From contig CAVQGX010000031.1 of the NCBI GenBank assembly GCA_963712115.1, forward strand, positions 160,001 through 224,000: 64,000 nucleotides of DNA, given 5' to 3'. Source of the stretch: an uncultured delta proteobacterium. GTDB lineage: Bacteria > Desulfobacterota > Syntrophobacteria > BM002. Position 1 is the stretch's first letter. Each line of letters begins with the position of its first letter. The notes below the pieces were generated by a model. The model ran no database searches, had not been told where the DNA came from, and saw only the letters and a program-made list of their open reading frames with translations. Below, piece after piece: positions 2,469-61,983 of this stretch. A program made the translations under genes and the position numbers.

Positions 2469-3119
2469 AGCTCTCACAGAGACCACAGAGTACTCAGAGA
2501 ACTAAAACCAGTCAGAATGAGGGACAGCAGTGATTAGGTAGGGATCGCTCAAAAGCTCATTGGAGATCCCTTGAAGACTAGAATAAACAAGCCCATTCTC
2601 GTCCTCAAGGTATCTCCAATGGTACGATGCATTCGCATCAGCAGCCCCTGCTGCACAGGGGACTTTGAGCGATCCAGGCGCACACCATAATATTTTTTTG
2701 GGGAGCTCACCGAGGATTTTAGAGACCACAGGGGACGGTCGGAACTTTCCTGAAAGACTGGATTACTAGGATAATCATTGCCCCGAAGGTAACCGACTAG
2801 ATTATTACACTATTGATCTATCGCTTAGAGGGCTCAATGAAACTCTGAGGTCTCGTACATCAAGTCGGATGAAGGTCGAGTTACTCATAGAGAGAACGGA
2901 GCGCTTATAGGCAAAGTGGGGAGGGCTGGATGTCCGGAATGAGCTTGCTTGTTCTGGACATCAAGGTCTCCCCACGTGTCCCGACGCTGTAGCGTCGGGA
3001 CCGCCCGCTTTGCGGGTGCCGATAAACGATCCCAACACTTTCACCTGCACAGTTTTCTCTGCGTTCTCTGTGGGCTCTAGCGAGCCCTGAGCCTGCCGAA
3101 GGGGGAGCGGGCGAGAGCT
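2469..3119 (+). mobile_element. Structured inverted-repeat element copy 1 (two four-way-junction modules, GxxExxY gene remnant)
   Basis: Ends AGCTCTCACAGAG... and ...CTCTGTGGGCTCT-hairpin-GAGCGGGCGAGAGCT; modules 2542-2675 and 2898-3032; homologous to 14832-15818, 48592-49073, 55015-55302. Confidence 0.7.
2745..2784 (+). pseudogene. Remnant of the 3' end of a GxxExxY gene
   Basis: 32/40 nt match to 15441-15480 by eye; translates FLKDWITRII versus LLKDGITRII. Confidence 0.65.
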
Positions 3120-7770: not shown

Positions 7771-8199
7771 ACCACGAAGATCACGAAGACAGAAGCCGTT
7801 ATAATACCATTCGTTTAATTCCATGTTTCATGTACTTCACATTAAAATTCATCAAAAGCCCGATTGATATACCAGACAACTTCATATATGTAAGTAACTG
7901 GGCTTGGTGAACTGGCAGAACTTTATCCACGCTCTTAAGTTCAACTATAATGGTTTTGTCTATAAACAAGTCGACACGATAACCGCAGTCGAGCTTTATA
8001 CCCTTGTATTCTACAGGCAAAGGGTGTTGTAGTTTGAACGGTATCCCCGCATTTGTCAGCTCATGAGCAAGGCACTGCTCATACGTGGATTCAAGTAATC
8101 CAGGGGCCAGATGCCTATGGACCTCTAGAGCACAGCCAATAACTTGGTTTGACAGTTTATCGAACTTCATTCTTCGTGCCCCTTCGTGTCCTTCGTGGT
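7771..8199 (-). mobile_element. GxxExxY element bounded by ACCACGAAG / CTTCGTGGT inverted repeat arrays, inserted in RND operon
   Basis: Left arm ACCACGAAGATCACGAAGACAGAAG (7771-7795), right arm CTTCGTGCCCCTTCGTGTCCTTCGTGGT (8172-8199); ORF-less relative at 58503-58579. Confidence 0.65.
7799..8170 (-). CDS. GxxExxY protein (PD-(D/E)XK nuclease superfamily)
   Basis: GLLESTY motif, RVDLFID..IIVELK, QLLTYMK..GLLMNF; ATGA overlap with upstream stop. Confidence 0.93.
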   Translation of the reverse strand: MKFDKLSNQVIGCALEVHRHLAPGLLESTYEQCLAHELTNAGIPFKLQHPLPVEYKGIKLDCGYRVDLFIDKTIIVELKSVDKVLPVHQAQLLTYMKLSGISIGLLMNFNVKYMKHGIKRMVL

Positions 8200-9636
8200 T
8201 TGATCTTTTTGCCCAAGCATAACCGGTCCTGGATCTCCCCAGCCTCCTCCAAGAGCCCGGTGGAGATTGACACGGTTGTTCAGAAGGGTGAAGTCCACCT
8301 GCAAGAGGTCACGTTCGGCCTCAAAGCGGGTTCTCTGTGTGTCCAGCACCGTGAGAAAATCAGTAAGACCCTTTTCGTATCGACTCTCAGCAAGCCTTTG
8401 CGCCTCCCTGGCCTCGTGCAGAAAAGTAACTACATATTCCCGACGTTTCAACTGTTCTTCCCGTGTCAAAAACGCTCCTTCCACTTCGGCAAAAGCGGTG
8501 AGCACTGTCTTGGCGTATTCGGCCACACCCTGTTGATATCTGGCCTCGGCCGCGCGTTGAGCAGCCTGCAATTTACCCGCGTCAAACAATGGCTGTGCAA
8601 TCCCGGCGGCAATACTCCACAACTCATTTTCGGGCTTGAAAAGCCGGTCTAGATCATCGCTGGTGTAACCGTAAGTGGAGGTCAAAACAATCCGGGGAAA
8701 GCGGCTGGCCTTGGCCGCGCCTACTAAGGCATTCAGCGCCACCAGTTGTTCCTCCGCCGCTCTGATGTCCGGCCGCCGAAGCAGCAGCTCGGAGGGAAGG
8801 CCTGGCGGGACTGGGTCTAACCGTTTGTAATAGTCTTCCGGTTGGAGCCTTGGAGGCCTAGTCTCTGGATAGCTTCCAAGAAGGACGGACAATGCCTGCT
8901 GCGTTGTACCCAAGTCCTGTCGCAGGGATGGCAGAGTTGCTTCAGCCCCGGCCAGAACCCTGCGAGCCTGTCTAACATCCAAGACCGAGGTCAGACCTCT
9001 TTTATATCTACTTTCCACCAGATTTAAGCTGCGACGAAAGGACTCGATGAGCTTTATGTCAATATCGATTGCCCGCTCAAACGTCTCCATTTGTAAATAT
9101 AGGGTGACAGTCTCCGCCACCACGGTCTGGGCCACGGTGCGGCGGTTCTCCTCTGCCTGCAGGAGATTGGCCCGCGCCGCCTCTTCTGCCCGGGCAAGAC
9201 GACCCCACAGGTCAATCTCGAAGGAAGCAGGCAAAGCCAAATCATATGTCGTACTTGTTCTATCGATGGAAACTGAATTCGGCTTGGGTATTTGCCGCCG
9301 CTCCACTCCAGCCTCAACGCCCACCTGGGGAAAACGCTCCGCTCGCGTCGAAACCAGTTGCGCTCGCACCTCCAGCACCGCCGCTGTAGCCCTCTTTATA
9401 TCCAGGTTGTTCTTCAGCACCTGTTCCACCAATTGGTTCAACTCGGGGTCATTGAACACACGCCACCATTGGTCGTCGGGCGCCGGCATGACTAGTTCGG
9501 TGGGAGTGTACTGGTAATCAGCAGGCACTTGGAAGCCAACGTCTGGTCGATGGTAGTCTGGACCCATTTTGAAGCAGCCACTTATAGTCAAAGAGATAGC
9601 TAGTACCGCACTTAAATATAGAAATAGTCTCTTCAC
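8167..9636 (-). CDS. Outer membrane efflux lipoprotein (NodT/OprM/TolC family)
   Basis: Lipobox ISGC, PDY.RP, WW..FNDP.L, GLPSELLLRRPDI, ALGGGW. Confidence 0.95.
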   Translation of the reverse strand: MKRLFLYLSAVLAISLTISGCFKMGPDYHRPDVGFQVPADYQYTPTELVMPAPDDQWWRVFNDPELNQLVEQVLKNNLDIKRATAAVLEVRAQLVSTRAERFPQVGVEAGVERRQIPKPNSVSIDRTSTTYDLALPASFEIDLWGRLARAEEAARANLLQAEENRRTVAQTVVAETVTLYLQMETFERAIDIDIKLIESFRRSLNLVESRYKRGLTSVLDVRQARRVLAGAEATLPSLRQDLGTTQQALSVLLGSYPETRPPRLQPEDYYKRLDPVPPGLPSELLLRRPDIRAAEEQLVALNALVGAAKASRFPRIVLTSTYGYTSDDLDRLFKPENELWSIAAGIAQPLFDAGKLQAAQRAAEARYQQGVAEYAKTVLTAFAEVEGAFLTREEQLKRREYVVTFLHEAREAQRLAESRYEKGLTDFLTVLDTQRTRFEAERDLLQVDFTLLNNRVNLHRALGGGWGDPGPVMLGQKDQTTKDTKGHEE

Positions 9637-14308: not shown

Positions 14309-14620
14309 TCATCCTACAATACTTGGACTCTATTGGGTCTCATGCTAAGCTACTTTACTGGATGCTAAACATATTAGAATCTCAGTCTTCTAACGAGTAT
14401 GTGTGGCCGGAGAATCTGAGCATATGAAACACATTAAGAGGACAAATGTAAAGAATTATTGTGTTTTAATATAACGCGGCTTTACGCGGAGATAGTGCAT
14501 CGCAAGGGTACGTGTTCTCATCGCCGGATTGAATCGTATTGCTTTTACAACTGACTCCCTCCATCTTGATAAAAGGGTGCAGTTAGCCAAAAGGGTACTG
14601 ATGAGAGATGGCAAAGCAGG

Positions 14621-14803
14621 GTGAAGGCCAAAAAGAGTGGCAGGCTCAGGTGGAGGCCGTTTGCTGGTCAGGGGCGAATCTATGTCGGCACCCTGGAGGG
14701 AAAGCTCGTTTGCTTGAGACTAAAAACAGAACTGGACGAACAAGGAGCCACACAGGTTCTCAAGGAGTTTCTCGACCCTGAACCGGAACAGGAATCCGAA
14801 TAG
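14621..14803 (+). pseudogene. Possible C-terminal fragment of a PQQ-like beta-propeller protein
   Basis: GRIYVGTLEGKLVCL resembles one PQQ/BamB blade; no upstream continuation. Confidence 0.4.
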
Positions 14804-14831
14804 TTATTCAGACTCTTAGTTAAATGCATAT

Positions 14832-15818
14832 ATCTCTCACAGAGCTCACAGAGTTCTCAGAGTCCTGACGCACATCAAATAAAAAAATTTAAAGGAAACA
14901 TTGAAAGATCACTGATAGCTAAACGGGGATACCTTGAGGACCGGCACAAGCGAGCTTATACCCTCCCACAAGGTATCCCCGCATCTACCGATGCATTCGC
15001 ATCGGTAGGTCCTGCAGCGCATGAGACTTTCAGCGATCTTGGTGCACACTTCATTGGTTTTTTGGGAGCTCACGGAGGATTAAGAAGATCACAGGGGGCG
15101 CACATGGATTTAAACCAACTATCCTCACAAATCATCCAAGCTGCTACAGCAGTTCATAAAGAGCTTGGCCCTGGCCTGCTGGAATCTGTCTACCAAGCAT
15201 GCATTACGATTGAACTTGAAAAAATGGGGATAGAGTTCAAAGCTGAGGCTTCCCTGCCTATCTCTTACCGCGGCAAGAAATTAGATAAGCTGTTATTCCG
15301 CTTGGATCTACTGGTAGAAGACACGGTTATTGTGGAATTGAAATCAGTAGAAAAAGTGGAACCAGTGCATAAGAAACAGCTTCTCACCTATTTACGTCTG
15401 GCGCAGAAGCCACTTGGTCTGTTGATAAATTTCAACGAGTCTTTACTGAAGGACGGGATCACTAGAATAATCAACACCCCAGAGAGAAACGAATAAGAGT
15501 CGTCGGGTGCGACGTGATCACTCAGTGGACTCAAAAAAATTCTGGGAGCTCTTAATCCAACAAGACGAGTGAGAGGAGTAGAGATTCCTCAGGAAGGATC
15601 GCCTAGAGGCCAAGTGGGCAGCGCTTGGAGGACAGTAATAAGCTTGCTTATTCTGGCCACCAAGAGCTGTCCACTGTCACGATGCGTCAGCATCGGGGCC
15701 GTCCACTGTGCGGCAGTCTCTAGGCGATCCCGATACTTTGACCGACACATATTTCTCTGCGTTCTCTGTGAGCTCTAGCGAACCCTGAGCTTCGGCGAAG
15801 GGTGAGCGGGCGAGAGAT
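14832..15818 (+). mobile_element. Structured inverted-repeat element copy 2, full-length with GxxExxY nuclease gene
   Basis: Ends ATCTCTCACAGAGCTCACAGAG and CTCTGTGAGCTCT-hairpin-GAGCGGGCGAGAGAT; modules 14905-15040 and 15596-15730 flank the ORF. Confidence 0.75.
15104..15496 (+). CDS. GxxExxY protein (PD-(D/E)XK nuclease superfamily), 130 aa
   Basis: GLLESVY motif, RLDLLVEDTVIVELK, QLLTYLR..GLLINF; AGGGGG RBS before ATG 15104. Confidence 0.93.
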   Translation: MDLNQLSSQIIQAATAVHKELGPGLLESVYQACITIELEKMGIEFKAEASLPISYRGKKLDKLLFRLDLLVEDTVIVELKSVEKVEPVHKKQLLTYLRLAQKPLGLLINFNESLLKDGITRIINTPERNE

Positions 15819-15833
15819 CTATCAATTGAAATA

Positions 15834-16628
15834 TTACTTGTACTGGAACTCGGGTTTGCGCTTCTCTAAGAAGGCAGTAACCCCTTCCATGGCATCCGCT
15901 GTATCTGCTGCCAGGCCAAGCAAATTGGCTTCCTTACTCAACGCCTCTCTTTGAGACATCTCTAACCCTTGCAAGACTGCGTCTAAGCACAACCGCACCG
16001 CCTCCGACGATTTCTCTGCCAGCTTTTGCGCCAATTGCTCGGCAGTTTGCATTAGTTCAGACAGGGGTACCACAGCATTCACCAAACCAATTCTGTGTGC
16101 TTCGTGGGCATCAACCATCTCTCCTGTCAAGATCATCTCGAGAGCCTTTCTTTTGCCCACCTGGCGGGGCAAGCGCACAGTTCCGCCCCAACAGGGATTG
16201 AAGGCTAAGTTAATTTCCGGCTGGCCTATATGGGCGTTCTCAGCGGCAATTGCCATGTGGCAGGCCTGAATGATTTCCGAGCCTCCTCCCAGAGCATAGC
16301 CGTTAACCGCAGCAATAACAGGTTTTCCCAACCGCTCAATAGTGGTGGTCAGCCCTTGCCCTGGCAACGAGAATTCCTCTCTAGCGGCCATTGGTCCCTT
16401 GGTGAAACTAGCCTTGATCTCCTTTATATCTGCACCGGCAATGAAAGCCTTTTCTCCGCTTCCTGTGATAATTACCACCCTGACTGAGCCGTCGCTTTTT
16501 GCCTCCTTCAAAGCATGGCTCAATTCCTTGACAGTATCTGCATTAAGAGCATTCATTACCTTTGGTCGATTTATTGTGATTTTTGCGATCCCATCCGCCT
16601 TTTCATAAATGATATTAGCGTACTCCAT
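15834..16628 (-). CDS. Enoyl-CoA hydratase / crotonase family
   Basis: NRPKVMNALN, AFIAGADI, NGYALGGGSE, GQPEI, AFLEKRKPEF. Confidence 0.93.
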   Translation of the reverse strand: MEYANIIYEKADGIAKITINRPKVMNALNADTVKELSHALKEAKSDGSVRVVIITGSGEKAFIAGADIKEIKASFTKGPMAAREEFSLPGQGLTTTIERLGKPVIAAVNGYALGGGSEIIQACHMAIAAENAHIGQPEINLAFNPCWGGTVRLPRQVGKRKALEMILTGEMVDAHEAHRIGLVNAVVPLSELMQTAEQLAQKLAEKSSEAVRLCLDAVLQGLEMSQREALSKEANLLGLAADTADAMEGVTAFLEKRKPEFQYK

Positions 16629-47572: not shown

Positions 47573-48628
47573 ATGTATTATTCTTTGGCTTTCTTTGCCT
47601 GGCTTTCAGAACTTGTATCCACCAAGCGTGTCGGCTTACTTGGTCTGACTCTTTCAATCTCTAAGGTGAACACTTTGCGAAAGACCTCATTATATGCACT
47701 CATGGCTATTCACGTCGGCCTGGCCTCAGGTACTTATGTTTTTGCTAAGGCTGCCGCGGTTGGATTTCCTGATGCTGAAACCTTGACCCTCGCCCGGGCA
47801 TTGGGGGCTGCCCTAATCCTCCTGTTGCTTACTGGCTGGGTCATCCCCAAACCGCGGTTCGATCTCAAGCAATGGCTCCGGATATTAGTGTTTGGGATCC
47901 TTCTTGTGCCAATAAACCAGTACTTGTTCCTCCGAGGCCTCCGGCTCACAGTACCTAGCCATCCCGCCCTTTTTTATGCCTTGACCCCCTTGGGCGTGCT
48001 CATTCTTACCAGTGGACTGAGTCGAAGAATGCCATTAAAAAGAAAAATCCTGGGGGTACTTCTGGCGCTGGTTGGGGTCTACATCATTCTCCGACCCTGG
48101 GAAGGAGGCGAGGCCATTAAGGAGCTGCGCACAGGCGATTTATGGGTTTTGGCCGCCATGCTTGCCTGGGTGCTTTACACCGTCTTGGCTGGTCGCACTT
48201 GCCAGAACCATGATCCACGAGTTGTAACTGCATGGAGTCTCATATTGGGGGCGGTGGCCATGACCCCCATTGGGGGGTATTCCCTGCTGACTACGGATTA
48301 CGGGGGAATCCCACCTGCCGCTTGGGCTGGACTGGCCTATATGATCGTCCTGACCAGCGTAACAATGTTACTGGTTTGGAACGTGCTGCTCCGCTATCTG
48401 GGGCCGGTAGAGGTGGCAATCTGTACCAACGCCCAGCCACCAACTACAGCCGCACTCTCAGCTCTGATGGCTGCTGTTGGGTTGCTCTCCAGTGAACAGG
48501 ACCTGGGCCTGCTCTTCTGGCTCGGCATGATAACCATCCTCACCGGTGTTGTTCTGGTCCAGTTCAACAATGATTCGCCAGAGAACAGAATATCTCTCAC
48601 AGAGAGCACAGAGATCTCAGAGAGCTAA
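47573..48628 (+). CDS. DMT/EamA family transporter (true start probably near 47666)
   Basis: About ten hydrophobic segments, two EamA-like halves; last residues encoded by the left end of element copy 3. Confidence 0.85.
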   Translation: MYYSLAFFAWLSELVSTKRVGLLGLTLSISKVNTLRKTSLYALMAIHVGLASGTYVFAKAAAVGFPDAETLTLARALGAALILLLLTGWVIPKPRFDLKQWLRILVFGILLVPINQYLFLRGLRLTVPSHPALFYALTPLGVLILTSGLSRRMPLKRKILGVLLALVGVYIILRPWEGGEAIKELRTGDLWVLAAMLAWVLYTVLAGRTCQNHDPRVVTAWSLILGAVAMTPIGGYSLLTTDYGGIPPAAWAGLAYMIVLTSVTMLLVWNVLLRYLGPVEVAICTNAQPPTTAALSALMAAVGLLSSEQDLGLLFWLGMITILTGVVLVQFNNDSPENRISLTESTEISES

Positions 48629-49073
48629 AACCAGTCAGAATTATGAGCAGCAAAGATTAGGTAGGGATCGCTCAGAAGCTCATTGGAGATACCTTGAAGA
48701 CTAGAACAAACAAGCTCATTCTCGTCCTCAAGGTATCTCCAATGGTCCGATGCATTCGCATCGGCAGCCCCTGCTGCACAGGGACTTTGAGCGATCCTGG
48801 TATGTCCTCTATTGGTTTTTTGGAGCTCACTGAGGACGGCCGAGACCACAGGTAGAAGACAGGCCGTTGCCGCAAGATCCAAAAGAAGATAATCAATATC
48901 CAATTTATTCTGGCCATCAAGAGCTGCCCTCTGTCCAGATGCGCCAGCATCGGGGCCGCCCGCCCTGCGGGAGCTTCTAGGCGATCCCCGACACTCCCAT
49001 TAGCAGTTCATCTTTGTGCCCTCTGCGTTCTCTAGCGATCCTGAGCCCAAGCGAAGGGGAGCGGGCGAGAGAT
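48592..49073 (+). mobile_element. Structured inverted-repeat element copy 3 (module A plus 3' half of module B, no ORF)
   Basis: 48592-48850 closely matches 2469-2732; 48905-48988 matches 15648-15731; same terminal sequences. Confidence 0.72.
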
Positions 49074-55014: not shown

Positions 55015-55302
55015 ATCTCTCACAGAGCTCACAGAGAACTCAGAGAGCTCTTGAATATTAAAGCAGTGAGGTTGATTTGGTCCAGGAGAAGATCGCTTAA
55101 AGGCTAAATGGAGAGAGCCTGAAGCCAGGAACAAGCTTGCTTATTCCTGGCTTTCTGGGCCTCTCCATTTGTCCCGATAGCCATATGGGGACGCCCTGCT
55201 TTGCAGGGCTTTTTAAGCGATCCGGCTACATCCCCTAGTATCTTTTTCTCTGAGCCCTCTGAGGACTCGAGCGAGCCCGCAGAGCGGGTGAGCGGGCGAG
55301 AG
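55015..55302 (+). mobile_element. Structured inverted-repeat element copy 4 (minimal, single four-way-junction module)
   Basis: Same terminal sequences; module 55091-55222 with all four stems intact despite divergent sequence. Confidence 0.7.
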
Positions 55303-61632: not shown

Positions 61633-61717
61633 GCACCCAGTTTTCTTTGACCTCGAGTGGAGTCGGTATCCGCGTACCGCAAACCGGTAATTTTGCCATC
61701 ATCACCGATTGAGTAAG

Positions 61718-61975
61718 AACGGCAGGTCTTCTGGCTCTCCCGATCTCCGGCTCGCCTTCCCACCCCGCTTGGTCCCGAGTTATTTAGAGGGACTTACGAG
61801 ACAGTGACTTTAACCCCGGGCAGGTCTCTGTATGGGGATCTTCCAAGCCTGCTTCCCATCCCGGGGTATACCGAAAAATGACACCCCACCTGCGGTGAGG
61901 TCAGGATTACAGCGGCGGGACCGCTCCCGATTCGCACGGGATTCCCTTTTAACCCTTTCGGTACCGTCCTTTATT
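61718..61975 (-). promoter_or_regulatory. Cobalamin riboswitch
   Basis: Minus strand GGT..AAAAGGGAATCCCGTGCGAATCGGGAGCGGTCCCGCCGCTGT, GTCACTG, GGGAAGG, GAGCCAGAAGACCTGCC; upstream of cbiK operon. Confidence 0.93.
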
Positions 61976-61983
61976 AGCTGGAT

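What the first reader, a model, noticed from the sequence alone, without database searches (positions are those of the whole stretch)
14832..15818. GxxExxY nuclease gene embedded in a highly structured, inverted-repeat-bounded element: candidate undescribed nuclease + structured nucleic acid mobile system
Seen: a 130-aa GxxExxY ORF (15104-15496) lies between two related four-way-junction modules (14905-15040, 15596-15730). The whole is enclosed by inverted ends (ATCTCTCACAGAGCTCACAGAG on the left; its complement on the right, interrupted by a CCCTGAGC..GAAGGG hairpin). Three ORF-less relatives with the same ends occur at 2469-3119, 48592-49073 and 55015-55302, giving a size series of 987, 651, 482 and 288 bp. 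No transposase, recombinase or target-site duplication is visible. Known: GxxExxY proteins (TIGR04256) are PD-(D/E)XK-fold proteins without a defined function, and that fold includes junction-resolving and other structure-specific nucleases. Inference: an autonomous/non-autonomous element family mobilised by this small nuclease, with the modules acting as its ssDNA substrate or as an RNA partner/guide.
Basis: partly seen in the sequence, partly recalled or inferred. Interest (0 to 1): 0.88.

Follow-up and report, generated by a model that had tools for sequence, protein, structure and literature searches.

The report
Nuclease gene inside nested hairpin repeats
A small, intact nuclease gene sits inside a nested set of inverted repeats, and the same kind of repeat flanks this gene family across many bacterial phyla, which suggests a little-described selfish gene-plus-hairpin element.

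Summary
Window 14832-15818 is one of about 17 copies in this genome of a modular repeat. Its parts are a left arm of three 9-nt CRCNRAG units, 0-2 copies of a ~134-nt four-helix module, an optional GxxExxY (PF13366) gene with inner arms, a complementary right arm and a GAGCGGGCGAGAG tail.

The module is a real structure: 36 of 53 pairs show compensatory change. It is confined to one bacterial family and absent from 80 GxxExxY loci in other phyla, so it is not the nuclease's general partner.

The general partner is the arm:
- 64 of 76 GxxExxY loci carry CRCNRAG repeats, against 17 of 140 control windows.
- In 201 genomes of the phylum, 48 of 67 with the gene have at least 5 triple-unit arms, against 10 of 134 without it.

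Orthologous sites show arms without the gene, one clean empty site, and cargo turnover between fixed arms. Three ORF-less copies share one deletion. The ORF is under purifying selection (dN/dS about 0.1).

Best reading (about 0.5): a selfish, IVS-like hairpin cassette whose nuclease promotes copying between arm pairs. Cleavage, transcription and mobility are untested.

The parts
14832..14862 (+). Outer left arm: ATCTCTC followed by three 9-nt units (CTCACAGAG CTCACAGAG TTCTCAGAG)
   Evidence: inverted pair I3: 22 nt, 86% complementary to 15755-15776. The same end is found at 18 places in the genome.
14905..15040 (+). Module A: closing stem GATCxC...GCGATC plus three hairpins (four-way junction). 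Its fourth hairpin is degenerate.
   Evidence: Covariance model R1 hit at G000:C31:174906-175039, 99.2 bits. Structure and covariation.
15060..15098 (+). Inner left arm next to the start codon (GAGCTCACGGAG ... ATCACAGGGGG)
   Evidence: D1, I9. Conserved in ORF-bearing and ORF-deleted copies (columns 18-60).
15104..15496 (+). GxxExxY / PD-(D/E)XK nuclease gene, 130 aa, intact
   Evidence: PF13366 E 1.2e-41 and TIGR04256 E 4e-43. E27, D68, K80 and Q92 are invariant and E78 and Y96 nearly so in 69 sequences. dN/dS is 0.08-0.10 against two other element-borne copies.
15519..15556 (+). Inner right arm / small hairpin (ATCACTCAGTGGACTC ... TTCTGGGAGCTCT)
   Evidence: I7, D7. Conserved in five copies (columns 480-515).
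15596..15730 (+). Module B: a complete four-way junction module
   Evidence: R1 hit at G000:C31:175596-175730, 105.5 bits. The 13-bp closing stem is perfect (I8).
15755..15776 (+). Outer right arm (CTCTGCGTT CTCTGTGAG CTCT), the complement of the left arm
   Evidence: I3, I5.
15777..15818 (+). Right-end tail: short hairpin (CCCTGAGC..GAAGGG, about 15783-15802), then GAGCGGGCGAGAG and the terminal AT that pairs with the ATCTCTC start
   Evidence: GAGCGGGCGAGAG with up to 1 mismatch at 19 places in the genome. Present in the 68-bp ends-only copy.
2469..3119 (+). E2: the same ends and two modules. The ORF is deleted but its last ~60 nt and both inner arms are kept.
48592..49073 (+). E3: the same ends, one full module and one 5'-truncated module, no ORF
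   Evidence: second module matches model positions 49-133 only.
55015..55302 (+). E4: the same ends and a single module
   Evidence: At the orthologous site one relative has ends only and another has the module without its long hairpin.
7773..8197 (-). Second GxxExxY cassette in the window (gene 7799-8170). It has plain arms of CACGAAG units, no module, and sits between two efflux genes on the same strand.
   Evidence: Relatives have the arms at this site without the gene.

Best explanation
The feature is a nested hairpin cassette, a kind of selfish element built as arms plus cargo.

Shown:
- The outer arms are inverted arrays of 8-9-nt CRCNRAG units.
- The cargo here is two copies of a lineage-specific structured 134-nt module and an inner, arm-flanked GxxExxY PD-(D/E)XK nuclease gene. 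The gene is intact and under purifying selection.
- Such arms flank GxxExxY genes in many phyla.
- Gene-less arm pairs are numerous almost only in genomes that carry the gene.
- At orthologous sites the arms stay while the cargo changes: nothing, small hairpins, a module, the gene, or at one site a four-helix-bundle gene in other arms.
- One site is cleanly empty in a relative.
- A deletion derivative of the composite element lies at three loci.

Inferred mechanism: the nuclease recognises or cuts the arms as a hairpin or cruciform, or at the repeated units. The break is repaired from a filled copy, with the arms serving as homology, so the gene and other cargo are copied into other arm pairs. 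This resembles homing. Arms-only and module-only copies would be non-autonomous relatives. In transcripts the arms should form a long stem like that of 23S rRNA intervening sequences, which RNase III removes. That would limit harm to host operons. The modules are a second, non-coding cargo of unknown role, not the nuclease's universal partner.
For: Family anatomy.

Module structure: 86.4% of cells paired, 36 of 53 pairs with compensatory change, 0 of 500 shuffles as high, and slid controls at 34-48% paired.

Arms and gene, locus level:
- 51 of 76 usable loci (of 80 fetched) have a flanking inverted repeat above the 99th percentile of 145 shifted controls.
- The arm period is 8 nt in 29 and 9 nt in 13 of those 51.
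- 64 of 76 loci have at least 4 CRCNRAG hits in their flanks, against 17 of 140 controls.

Arms and gene, genome level (201 genomes at least 90% complete):
- At least 5 triple-unit arms in 48 of 67 PF13366+ genomes against 10 of 134 PF13366- genomes (odds ratio 31).
- Collapsed to bacterial families: 26 of 39 against 2 of 44.
- 43 of 67 still pass after subtracting two arms per gene. In total there are 2742 arms for 159 genes.
- The link holds within PF05635+ and PF05635- genomes, while PF05635 adds nothing once PF13366 is given.
- The pattern read backwards gives about 0 hits per genome.

Arms precede the gene:
- At the efflux site, three relatives have the arms plus small inner hairpins and no gene.
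- At site C31:229316, one relative is cleanly empty (5 nt between the flanks), two have arms only, and two genomes have arms plus gene.
- The two G000 cassettes are 95% identical, with homology ending at the outer ends of the arms.

Cargo turnover in the CACAGAG family:
- E4 site: ends only, module without its long hairpin, or full module.
- E1 site: a relative has a one-module form.
- C31:144956 site: a relative has the ends with a ~90-nt spacer.

Other points: three ORF-less copies share the same deletion end points. Catalytic residues are conserved. dN/dS is 0.08-0.10. As a known analogue, the Coxiella 23S IVS has a 28-bp terminal stem, tandem heptamers before its small ORF, and is excised by RNase III (PMC4990558, passages read).
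Against: - No cleavage, binding, transcription or movement was observed. The RNA-run attempt gave nothing usable for the element.
- Copies of the CACAGAG family are old (70-86% identical; dS about 1.2-1.4 between ORF copies), so there is no sign of recent bursts.
- 10 of 134 genomes without the gene still have many arms, and 19 of 67 with the gene have fewer than 5. A closed relative (G018) has 14 arms and no gene.
- 11 of the 51 loci have the opposite topology, with the pyrimidine-rich arm upstream. The simple cassette model does not explain this.
- In module stems, G:T cells (47) do not outnumber A:C cells (67), so there is no strand signal for an RNA.
- Intergenic regions of this genus hold many other tandem-unit hairpins, so part of the turnover may be general instability of such regions.
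- Genomes in the co-occurrence test are related, and the motif was derived from GxxExxY flanks.
Confidence: 0.5

Rival explanations
1. Host-side partnership. The arms and modules are host-useful or tolerated structural repeats, for example RNA processing or stability sites or terminator-like hairpins, comparable to REP/BIME elements. GxxExxY is then a domesticated or housekeeping structure-specific nuclease that processes or maintains such hairpins. Its genes sit in arms because the arms control their expression.
For: Arms and the gene co-occur at genome level, which this model also predicts. The upstream arm ends a median of 14 nt from the start codon and is purine-rich in 34 of 51 loci, which fits translational or processing control. 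Copies are old and the protein is under purifying selection. Arms persist in some genomes without the gene.
Against: One site is cleanly empty and genes are present or absent inside conserved operons. Near-identical paralogous cassettes lie at two loci. The gene is patchy within one genus, with 0-7 copies per genome. A deletion derivative spread to three loci. Close homologues sit mostly on contigs of about 1 kb, as repeats do. All of this looks selfish rather than housekeeping.
Confidence: 0.2
2. The four-way-junction modules are the specific ssDNA substrate or RNA partner of this clade of GxxExxY nuclease, and the whole 987-bp unit is a transposon-like element moved by module recognition.
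For: 2 of 5 GxxExxY genes in the genome lie next to modules. The module-ORF-module composite is conserved at 73% identity in another species, on a contig whose flanks do not match those of E1. The deleted two-module form lies at three loci. The module has strong covariation and a junction-like fold.
Against: The module is in 0 of 80 GxxExxY loci from other taxa, apart from one 28-bit hit, and in 0 of 19 genomes from other families of the class. Most modules in this genome are far from any GxxExxY gene. Nine of the 28 aligned copies sit in other kinds of arms and one is inverted relative to the ends. The three other GxxExxY genes have no module. One-module, no-module and partly deleted forms share the same ends at orthologous sites.
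Confidence: 0.12
3. Passive association. Tandem-unit inverted repeats arise and turn over by replication slippage and template switching in intergenic DNA. Small genes such as GxxExxY and four-helix-bundle genes simply survive or are exchanged there by ordinary recombination. The nuclease's real function lies elsewhere, for example in defence or repair.
For: The genome is full of other tandem 7-9-nt arrays arranged as hairpins. The same intergenic site holds a GxxExxY cassette in one species and a four-helix-bundle cassette in another. The symmetric G:T versus A:C counts in module stems fit DNA-level palindrome maintenance.
Against: The CRCNRAG unit shape is shared by GxxExxY flanks from many phyla. 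It is tied to PF13366 and not to PF05635, which chance slippage would not produce. Arms are near zero in most genomes without the gene (median 0 against 18).
Confidence: 0.1

Closest known systems
23S rRNA intervening sequences (IVS) carrying an S23p / four-helix-bundle ORF (PF05635), e.g. Coxiella, Leptospira
   Same: Both have a small ORF enclosed by terminal inverted repeats that form a long stem, with tandem short repeats directly before the ORF. In both, ORFs decay or are lost, and a mobile origin has been suspected but never shown (PMC4990558, passages read). In this genome PF05635 genes are also flanked by tandem-unit inverted repeats. One occupies, in a relative, the very site that holds a GxxExxY cassette here.
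   Different: This element is not in rRNA (no rRNA family matched anywhere in the window; E1 lies between protein genes). The ORF is a PD-(D/E)XK nuclease, not a four-helix bundle. The units are 8-9-nt CRCNRAG rather than heptamers. The element is nested with structured modules. RNase III excision was not tested.
REP / BIME repeats with their RAYT genes (recalled, not from a call)
   Same: A single-gene family is flanked by inverted copies of a short repeat that is also dispersed in many gene-less copies. The elements have a mosaic, modular build in intergenic regions, and the repeat co-occurs with the gene at genome level.
   Different: RAYTs are Y1 (IS200/IS605-like) transposases, whereas this gene is a PD-(D/E)XK nuclease. 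The arms are tandem arrays of 8-9-nt units rather than a single REP palindrome.
MITEs and their autonomous DNA transposons
   Same: Both have terminal inverted repeats, internally deleted non-autonomous derivatives that spread, a size series, and presence or absence among relatives.
   Different: There is no transposase family in the element and no consistent target-site duplication. At orthologous sites the ends stay while the interior changes, which is not how cut-and-paste elements behave.
Homing endonuclease genes, including PD-(D/E)XK-type ones (recalled)
   Same: A small nuclease gene is present or absent at the same site in relatives, including one clean empty site. Near-identical copies lie at sites that share flanking homology.
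   Different: It is not in a self-splicing intron or intein. The presumed target is a dispersed repeat (arm pairs) rather than a single conserved gene. No cleavage has been shown.
TIGR04256 / PF13366 GxxExxY proteins
   Same: The ORF is a full-length member with the family's invariant residues.
   Different: The family has no assigned function (PF13366 is listed as 'Unknown' in PMC3424549, table row read). My searches for the terms 'GxxExxY', 'PDDEXK_3' and 'PF13366' found no paper describing its flanking repeats.

Membership tests
PF13366 PDDEXK_3 / TIGR04256 GxxExxY | Profile score above the curated cut-off over the full length | tested here: met
   142.2 bits against a cut-off of 22, profile positions 2-117 of 117. 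146.5 bits against a cut-off of 35.
PF13366 PDDEXK_3 / TIGR04256 GxxExxY | GxxExxY motif and PD-(D/E)XK catalytic residues (D ... ExK) | tested here: met
   G24, E27, Y30, D68, K80 and Q92 are invariant and E78 and Y96 at least 90% conserved in 69 sequences. All are present in this ORF.
23S rRNA intervening sequence (IVS) | Inserted in a 23S rRNA helix | tested here: not met
   The only Rfam hit in the window is a cobalamin riboswitch. E1 lies between a small ORF and an enoyl-CoA hydratase gene.
23S rRNA intervening sequence (IVS) | Terminal inverted repeats forming a long stem around a small ORF, with tandem short repeats before the ORF | tested here: met
   The comparison is with PMC4990558.
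23S rRNA intervening sequence (IVS) | ORF of the S23p / PF05635 family | tested here: not met
   The ORF is PF13366.
23S rRNA intervening sequence (IVS) | Excision from the transcript by RNase III | not testable with these tools
   The public RNA runs laid on the region did not cover the element.
REP/RAYT (REPtron) | Y1 transposase-like gene flanked by REPs | tested here: not met
   Pfam finds only PDDEXK_3 in the ORF.
REP/RAYT (REPtron) | Gene flanked by inverted copies of a repeat that is dispersed in many gene-less copies and co-occurs with the gene | tested here: met
MITE / IS-type DNA transposon | Terminal inverted repeats | tested here: met
   ATCTCTC...GAGAGAT plus the arms.
MITE / IS-type DNA transposon | Target-site duplication of fixed length | tested here: not met
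   Read by eye, the flanks of 15 copies show no consistent direct repeat.
MITE / IS-type DNA transposon | A transposase encoded by the autonomous member | tested here: not met
   PF13366 is the only ORF family found. I did not run ISfinder-type libraries.
Any Rfam family (modules, ends) | Match at or above the gathering score | tested here: not met
   None at gathering score. The best sub-threshold hits are miRNA-precursor hairpins at 29 bits or less against cut-offs of 58 or more.
Homing endonuclease gene | Presence or absence at one site, with an intact empty allele in relatives | tested here: met
   At site C31:229316, relative G002 has 5 nt between the flanks. G010 and G007 have arms only. 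G000 and G012 have arms plus gene. This was shown for the plain cassette, not for E1.
Homing endonuclease gene | The nuclease cuts the empty allele | not testable with these tools
   This needs a biochemical test.

The most novel reading that the evidence does not exclude
GxxExxY nucleases and their tandem CRCNRAG-unit hairpin arms form a previously unrecognised class of mobile element found in many phyla. In it a PD-(D/E)XK nuclease targets dispersed hairpin or cruciform repeats. Cargo (the gene itself, structured modules, other small genes) is copied between arm pairs by break repair. The class would be a sister to the 23S rRNA IVS elements, and it would explain part of the short tandem-repeat hairpins that fill the intergenic DNA of many bacteria.
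Probability: 0.3. Interest if true: 0.85.

Novelty: new variant of a known kind. Interest (0 to 1): 0.7.

Why it matters
GxxExxY / PF13366 is a very large protein family with no known function. One search returned 8000 scored relatives, which was the cap. Tying the family to a specific, recognisable repeat (CRCNRAG tandem-unit inverted arms) gives it a testable substrate. Showing that arms pre-exist while cargo moves gives it a testable mechanism. The same work would bear on the old open question of where rRNA intervening sequences and their small ORFs come from. It would also help explain why some bacterial genomes hold hundreds of short tandem-repeat hairpins. For annotation, it accounts for spurious N- and C-terminal extensions and for assembly breaks around these genes.

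Tried and rejected
- Rfam: nothing at gathering score for the window, and only chance-level miRNA-like hairpins at E-value threshold for the element.
- Public RNA runs: 4 metatranscriptome runs were laid. Their contigs come from relatives and cover only the flanking genes and loose copies of the left end. The interior of the element has no cover, so nothing can be said about expression.
- Promoter and terminator scan of 14600-16000: 1 site of each kind, no more than in shuffles.
- PDB by sequence: no relative of the single protein except a chance hit at E 0.52, and none of the 69-sequence profile.
- Strand of the module: G:T versus A:C counts (47 against 67) give no RNA-strand signal. Both strands of E4 fold far better than shuffles (z -6.6 and -9.9), as any inverted repeat would.
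- Permutation control pairing upstream flanks with other loci's downstream flanks: rejected as too lenient, because different loci share unit types. The shifted-position control was used instead.
- Target-site duplication: none consistent.
- Unit length as a marker of cargo family (7-mers for four-helix-bundle genes, 8-9-mers for GxxExxY): not clean in this genome by eye, so dropped.
- Literature: the terms GxxExxY, PDDEXK_3, PF13366, PF05635/S23/TIGR02436 and STRR/heptameric repeats found no description of the arms around GxxExxY genes. Subscription journals and supplements were not seen.
Full report

Yes.
- The ORF 15104-15496 (+) encodes 130 aa. It matches PF13366 PDDEXK_3 end to end (E 1.2e-41) and TIGR04256 GxxExxY (E 4e-43).
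- The left-end 22-mer occurs at 2469, 14832, 48592 and 55015, all on +, with up to 3 mismatches. None was expected in 100 shuffles.
- The sequences at the four places show the ends and modules as described.
- Rfam has no family for any part.

**2. The family in the whole genome**

BLAST and motif scans of the 4.9-Mb assembly find about 17 copies with these ends. Sizes run from a 68-bp copy that is ends only (C47:5338-5405) to E1 at 987 bp.

The build, in order, is:
- a left arm: ATCTCTC plus three 9-nt units, CTCACAGAG CTCACAGAG NNCTCAGAG;
- 0, 1 or 2 modules;
- optionally an inner pair of arms around the GxxExxY ORF;
- a complementary right arm;
- a short hairpin and GAGCGGGCGAGAG.

A second ORF-bearing copy lies at C31:144956-145696, outside the window. 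It is 76% identical to E1 over 578 nt. A third lies in another species (G009) at 73% identity, on a contig whose flanks do not match those of E1.

Three two-module copies without the ORF (E2, C1:18625-19267, C31:345548-346176) keep both inner arms and the last ~60 nt of the ORF. In the alignment they share the same ~333-nt gap. This points to one deletion derivative that later came to lie at three loci.

**3. The module**

I aligned 28 near-full-length copies. A hand-drawn structure has a 13-bp closing stem and three hairpins, 53 pairs in all.
- 86.4% of cells are paired.
- 36 pairs have compensatory changes.
- None of 500 shuffles reaches any of the five measures.
- Sliding the partners drops pairing to 34-48%.

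So the four-way junction is real. The conserved letters sit mostly in short palindromic stem segments (GATCGC/GCGATC, AAGC/GCTT, CCGAT/ATCGG, CCGC/GCGG), and the variable stem positions covary.

G:T cells (47) do not outnumber A:C cells (67) on the module strand. I therefore cannot say that it works as RNA. A structure kept at the DNA level, or on both strands, fits as well.

A covariance model finds the module:
- in 16 of 17 other genomes of the genus;
- in 2 of 4 other genera of the same bacterial family;
- in 0 of 19 genomes of five other families of the class;
- in 0 of 80 GxxExxY loci from other taxa, apart from one 28-bit hit.

In this genome it has about 30 copies: 28 near-full-length by nhmmer, and 44 model matches that include opposite-strand echoes. 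Eight copies lie in a 20-kb stretch of contig 14 between ordinary genes, inside arms of other unit types.

The module is therefore a lineage-specific, non-coding cargo and not the nuclease's general partner.

**4. What does go with the nuclease: the arms**

The three other GxxExxY genes of this genome have no module. They are tightly flanked by inverted arrays of 9-nt units, CACGAAG-type for two and CGCAGAG-type for one.

I fetched 80 GxxExxY loci from named public genomes of many phyla: cyanobacteria, Bacteroidota, Acidobacteriota, Planctomycetota, Verrucomicrobiota, Chloroflexota and others. Of these, 76 had enough flank and a normal ORF length.
- In 51 of 76 the best inverted match between the 110 nt before the start and the 110 nt after the stop exceeds the 99th percentile of 145 shifted-position controls.
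- The arms have a period of 8 nt (29 loci) or 9 nt (13 loci).
- The unit sequence differs between lineages but keeps the shape C-R-C-N-R-A-G. At least 4 hits occur in 64 of 76 loci, against 17 of 140 control windows.
- 34 loci have the purine-rich arm upstream, 11 have the reverse and 6 are mixed. The reverse topology is unexplained.

At genome level I scanned 201 genomes of the phylum, all at least 90% complete, for three CRCNRAG units in tandem, for PF13366 and for PF05635.
- At least 5 arms occur in 48 of 67 genomes with PF13366, against 10 of 134 without it (odds ratio 31).
- With one point per bacterial family the figures are 26 of 39 against 2 of 44.
- After taking off two arms per gene, 43 of 67 still pass. 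Overall there are 2742 arms for 159 genes.
- The link holds within PF05635+ genomes (40 of 55 against 8 of 60) and within PF05635- genomes (8 of 12 against 2 of 74).
- PF05635 adds nothing once PF13366 is given (40 of 55 against 8 of 12, p 0.73).
- The pattern read backwards gives about zero hits per genome.

Caveats: the genomes are related, the motif was derived from GxxExxY flanks, and there are exceptions in both directions.

Within this genome a looser scan finds 39 arm pairs in hairpin order, with a median spacer of 110 nt. Only 10 pairs are in the opposite order, and those are far apart. Of the 39, 4 hold a GxxExxY gene, 10 hold modules, 24 have spacers of 22-183 nt, and one pair 2.1 kb apart is probably unrelated.

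**5. Comparison of orthologous sites**

*Efflux operon, window 7799-8170.* The CACGAAG arms are present at the same site in three relatives (G011, G004, G010), where they enclose only small inner hairpins. They are partly present in four more relatives. The gene is there only in this genome and in G006.

*Site C31:229316.* G002 has 5 nt between the flanks, a clean empty site. G010 and G007 have the arms with 52- and 93-nt spacers. This genome and G012 have arms plus gene.

The two cassettes of this genome are 95% identical, and the similarity stops at the outer ends of the arms. At the efflux site the right arm of this genome resembles the arm of the paralogous cassette more than the resident arm of relatives. 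I read this by eye, and it fits import by recombination within or just outside the arms.

*CACAGAG family:*
- At the E4 site one relative has ends only, one has the module without its long hairpin, and three have unrelated heptamer hairpins.
- At the E1 site G010 has the same ends with one module, and G002 and G016 have heptamer hairpins.
- At the site of the second ORF-bearing copy G010 has the ends with a ~90-nt spacer.
- At the site of the C46 cassette G007 carries a four-helix-bundle gene in different arms.

So arms are older than their cargo, cargo turns over, and the same intergenic sites are used again and again. I found no clean empty site for E1 itself.

**6. The protein**

In 69 sequences H18, G24, L25, E27, Y30, D68, K80, Q92 and N109 are invariant, and E78, H89 and Y96 are nearly so. 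These are the GxxExxY helix, the D...ExK core and a Q...Y motif. I recall the Q...Y motif as typical of RecB-like nucleases, but that is not from a call.

dN/dS among E1, the second copy and the G009 copy is 0.08-0.10, with dS of 1.2-1.4. The gene is functional and the copies are old.

No solved structure is related by sequence.

**7. Mechanism**

The best-supported reading is a selfish arms-plus-cargo cassette.

Shown: the specific gene-arm link, arms preceding the gene, a clean empty site, near-identical cassettes bounded by arms, spread of a deletion derivative, and an intact, constrained nuclease.

Inferred: the nuclease cuts the arms (as hairpin, cruciform or repeated sites), and repair from a filled copy spreads the cargo. 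Also inferred: in RNA the arms form a stem that RNase III removes, as shown for the Coxiella 23S IVS. That IVS has a 28-bp terminal stem and three tandem heptamers before its small ORF (PMC4990558, passages read).

I put this reading at about 0.5. The rivals are:
- a host-side partnership of a domesticated nuclease with useful repeats (0.2);
- passive association (0.1).

**8. Known or new?**

The protein is an ordinary member of a known family without a function (PMC3424549 lists PF13366 as 'Unknown', table row read). The element works most like an rRNA IVS and like a REP/RAYT pair, but it fails defining features of both: it is not in rRNA, its ORF is not S23p, and it has no Y1 transposase.

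My literature searches found no description of the arms around GxxExxY genes. The only other mention I read was a GxxExxY domain noted next to a reverse transcriptase (PMC8934634, one passage). Subscription journals and supplements were not seen. I file it as a new variant of a known kind.

**9. What stays open**

Whether the element is transcribed; which strand or molecule the module works in; what the nuclease cuts; how arms reach new sites; and why a fifth of loci have the reverse arm order.

Noticed in passing
window 61704-61983 (-): Cobalamin riboswitch, 68.5 bits against a gathering score of 31.5. It is the only Rfam match in the window.
   Followed up: no
window 8167-9636 (-) and 7799-8170 (-): The reading frame of the outer-membrane efflux gene runs on through the upstream arm of the GxxExxY cassette (tail ...KDQTTKDTKGHEE) and overlaps the cassette's start codon. 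Arms can therefore add spurious or real C-terminal tails to host genes.
   Followed up: partly
whole genome G000; e.g. G000:C14:62000-83000: The genome is full of short tandem arrays. At a low TRF threshold there are 2573 arrays of period 7, 501 of period 8 and 633 of period 9, with recurrent units such as ACTAGGC (146 arrays), ACCTCTG (126) and AAATCCG (109). Many form hairpin-type inverted pairs in intergenic DNA. I made no shuffled control for these counts.
   Followed up: partly
G000: 14 PF05635 matches, e.g. C46:138682-138999, C18:8263-8577, C59:7316-7630: Genes for four-helix-bundle (23S rRNA IVS protein family) proteins are also flanked by inverted arrays of tandem 7-9-nt units. They share a conserved GAAAGGGGCAC stretch before the start codon. 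Three of the matches carry in-frame stops.
   Followed up: partly
L178 (G007:C192), orthologous to G000:C46:9376-9809: Where G000 has a GxxExxY cassette, the relative G007 has a four-helix-bundle gene cassette in different arms, and G012 and G016 have heptamer hairpins. The two small-gene families are alternative occupants of one site.
   Followed up: partly
G013:C1 (closed genome of the genus), e.g. 556471-556698, 1035618-1035845, 1267447-1267710: At least seven pairs of CACAGAG/CACGGAG arms lie about 180-215 nt apart. This is a uniform MITE-like family in a genome that has only a fragment of a GxxExxY gene.
   Followed up: no
G175 (8-Mb genome of the phylum): This genome has 608 triple-unit CRCNRAG arms but only 4 PF13366 matches. 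Many are pairs about 30 nt apart, that is minimal hairpins.
   Followed up: no
proteins P0001-P0120: Homologues at 71-92% identity to the E1 protein sit mostly on contigs of about 0.5-3 kb, as expected if these cassettes break metagenome assemblies. Some are annotated with longer N-termini (up to 195 aa), probably read through the arms.
   Followed up: no
L140 (G010:C7), orthologous to window 55015-55302: The module copy at this site lacks exactly its long hairpin (P2) while the closing stem and the two short hairpins remain. This looks like precise loss of a hairpin.
   Followed up: no
window 15783-15818 and the right ends of other copies: GAGCGGGCGAGAG is itself part of a 9-nt tandem unit family (TRF consensus ACGGGCGAG in 23 arrays, ACGAGCGAG in 8). 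In several species the terminal GCGAGAGA lies 4-10 nt before the start codon of the downstream gene, so it may act as part of a ribosome-binding site.
   Followed up: no
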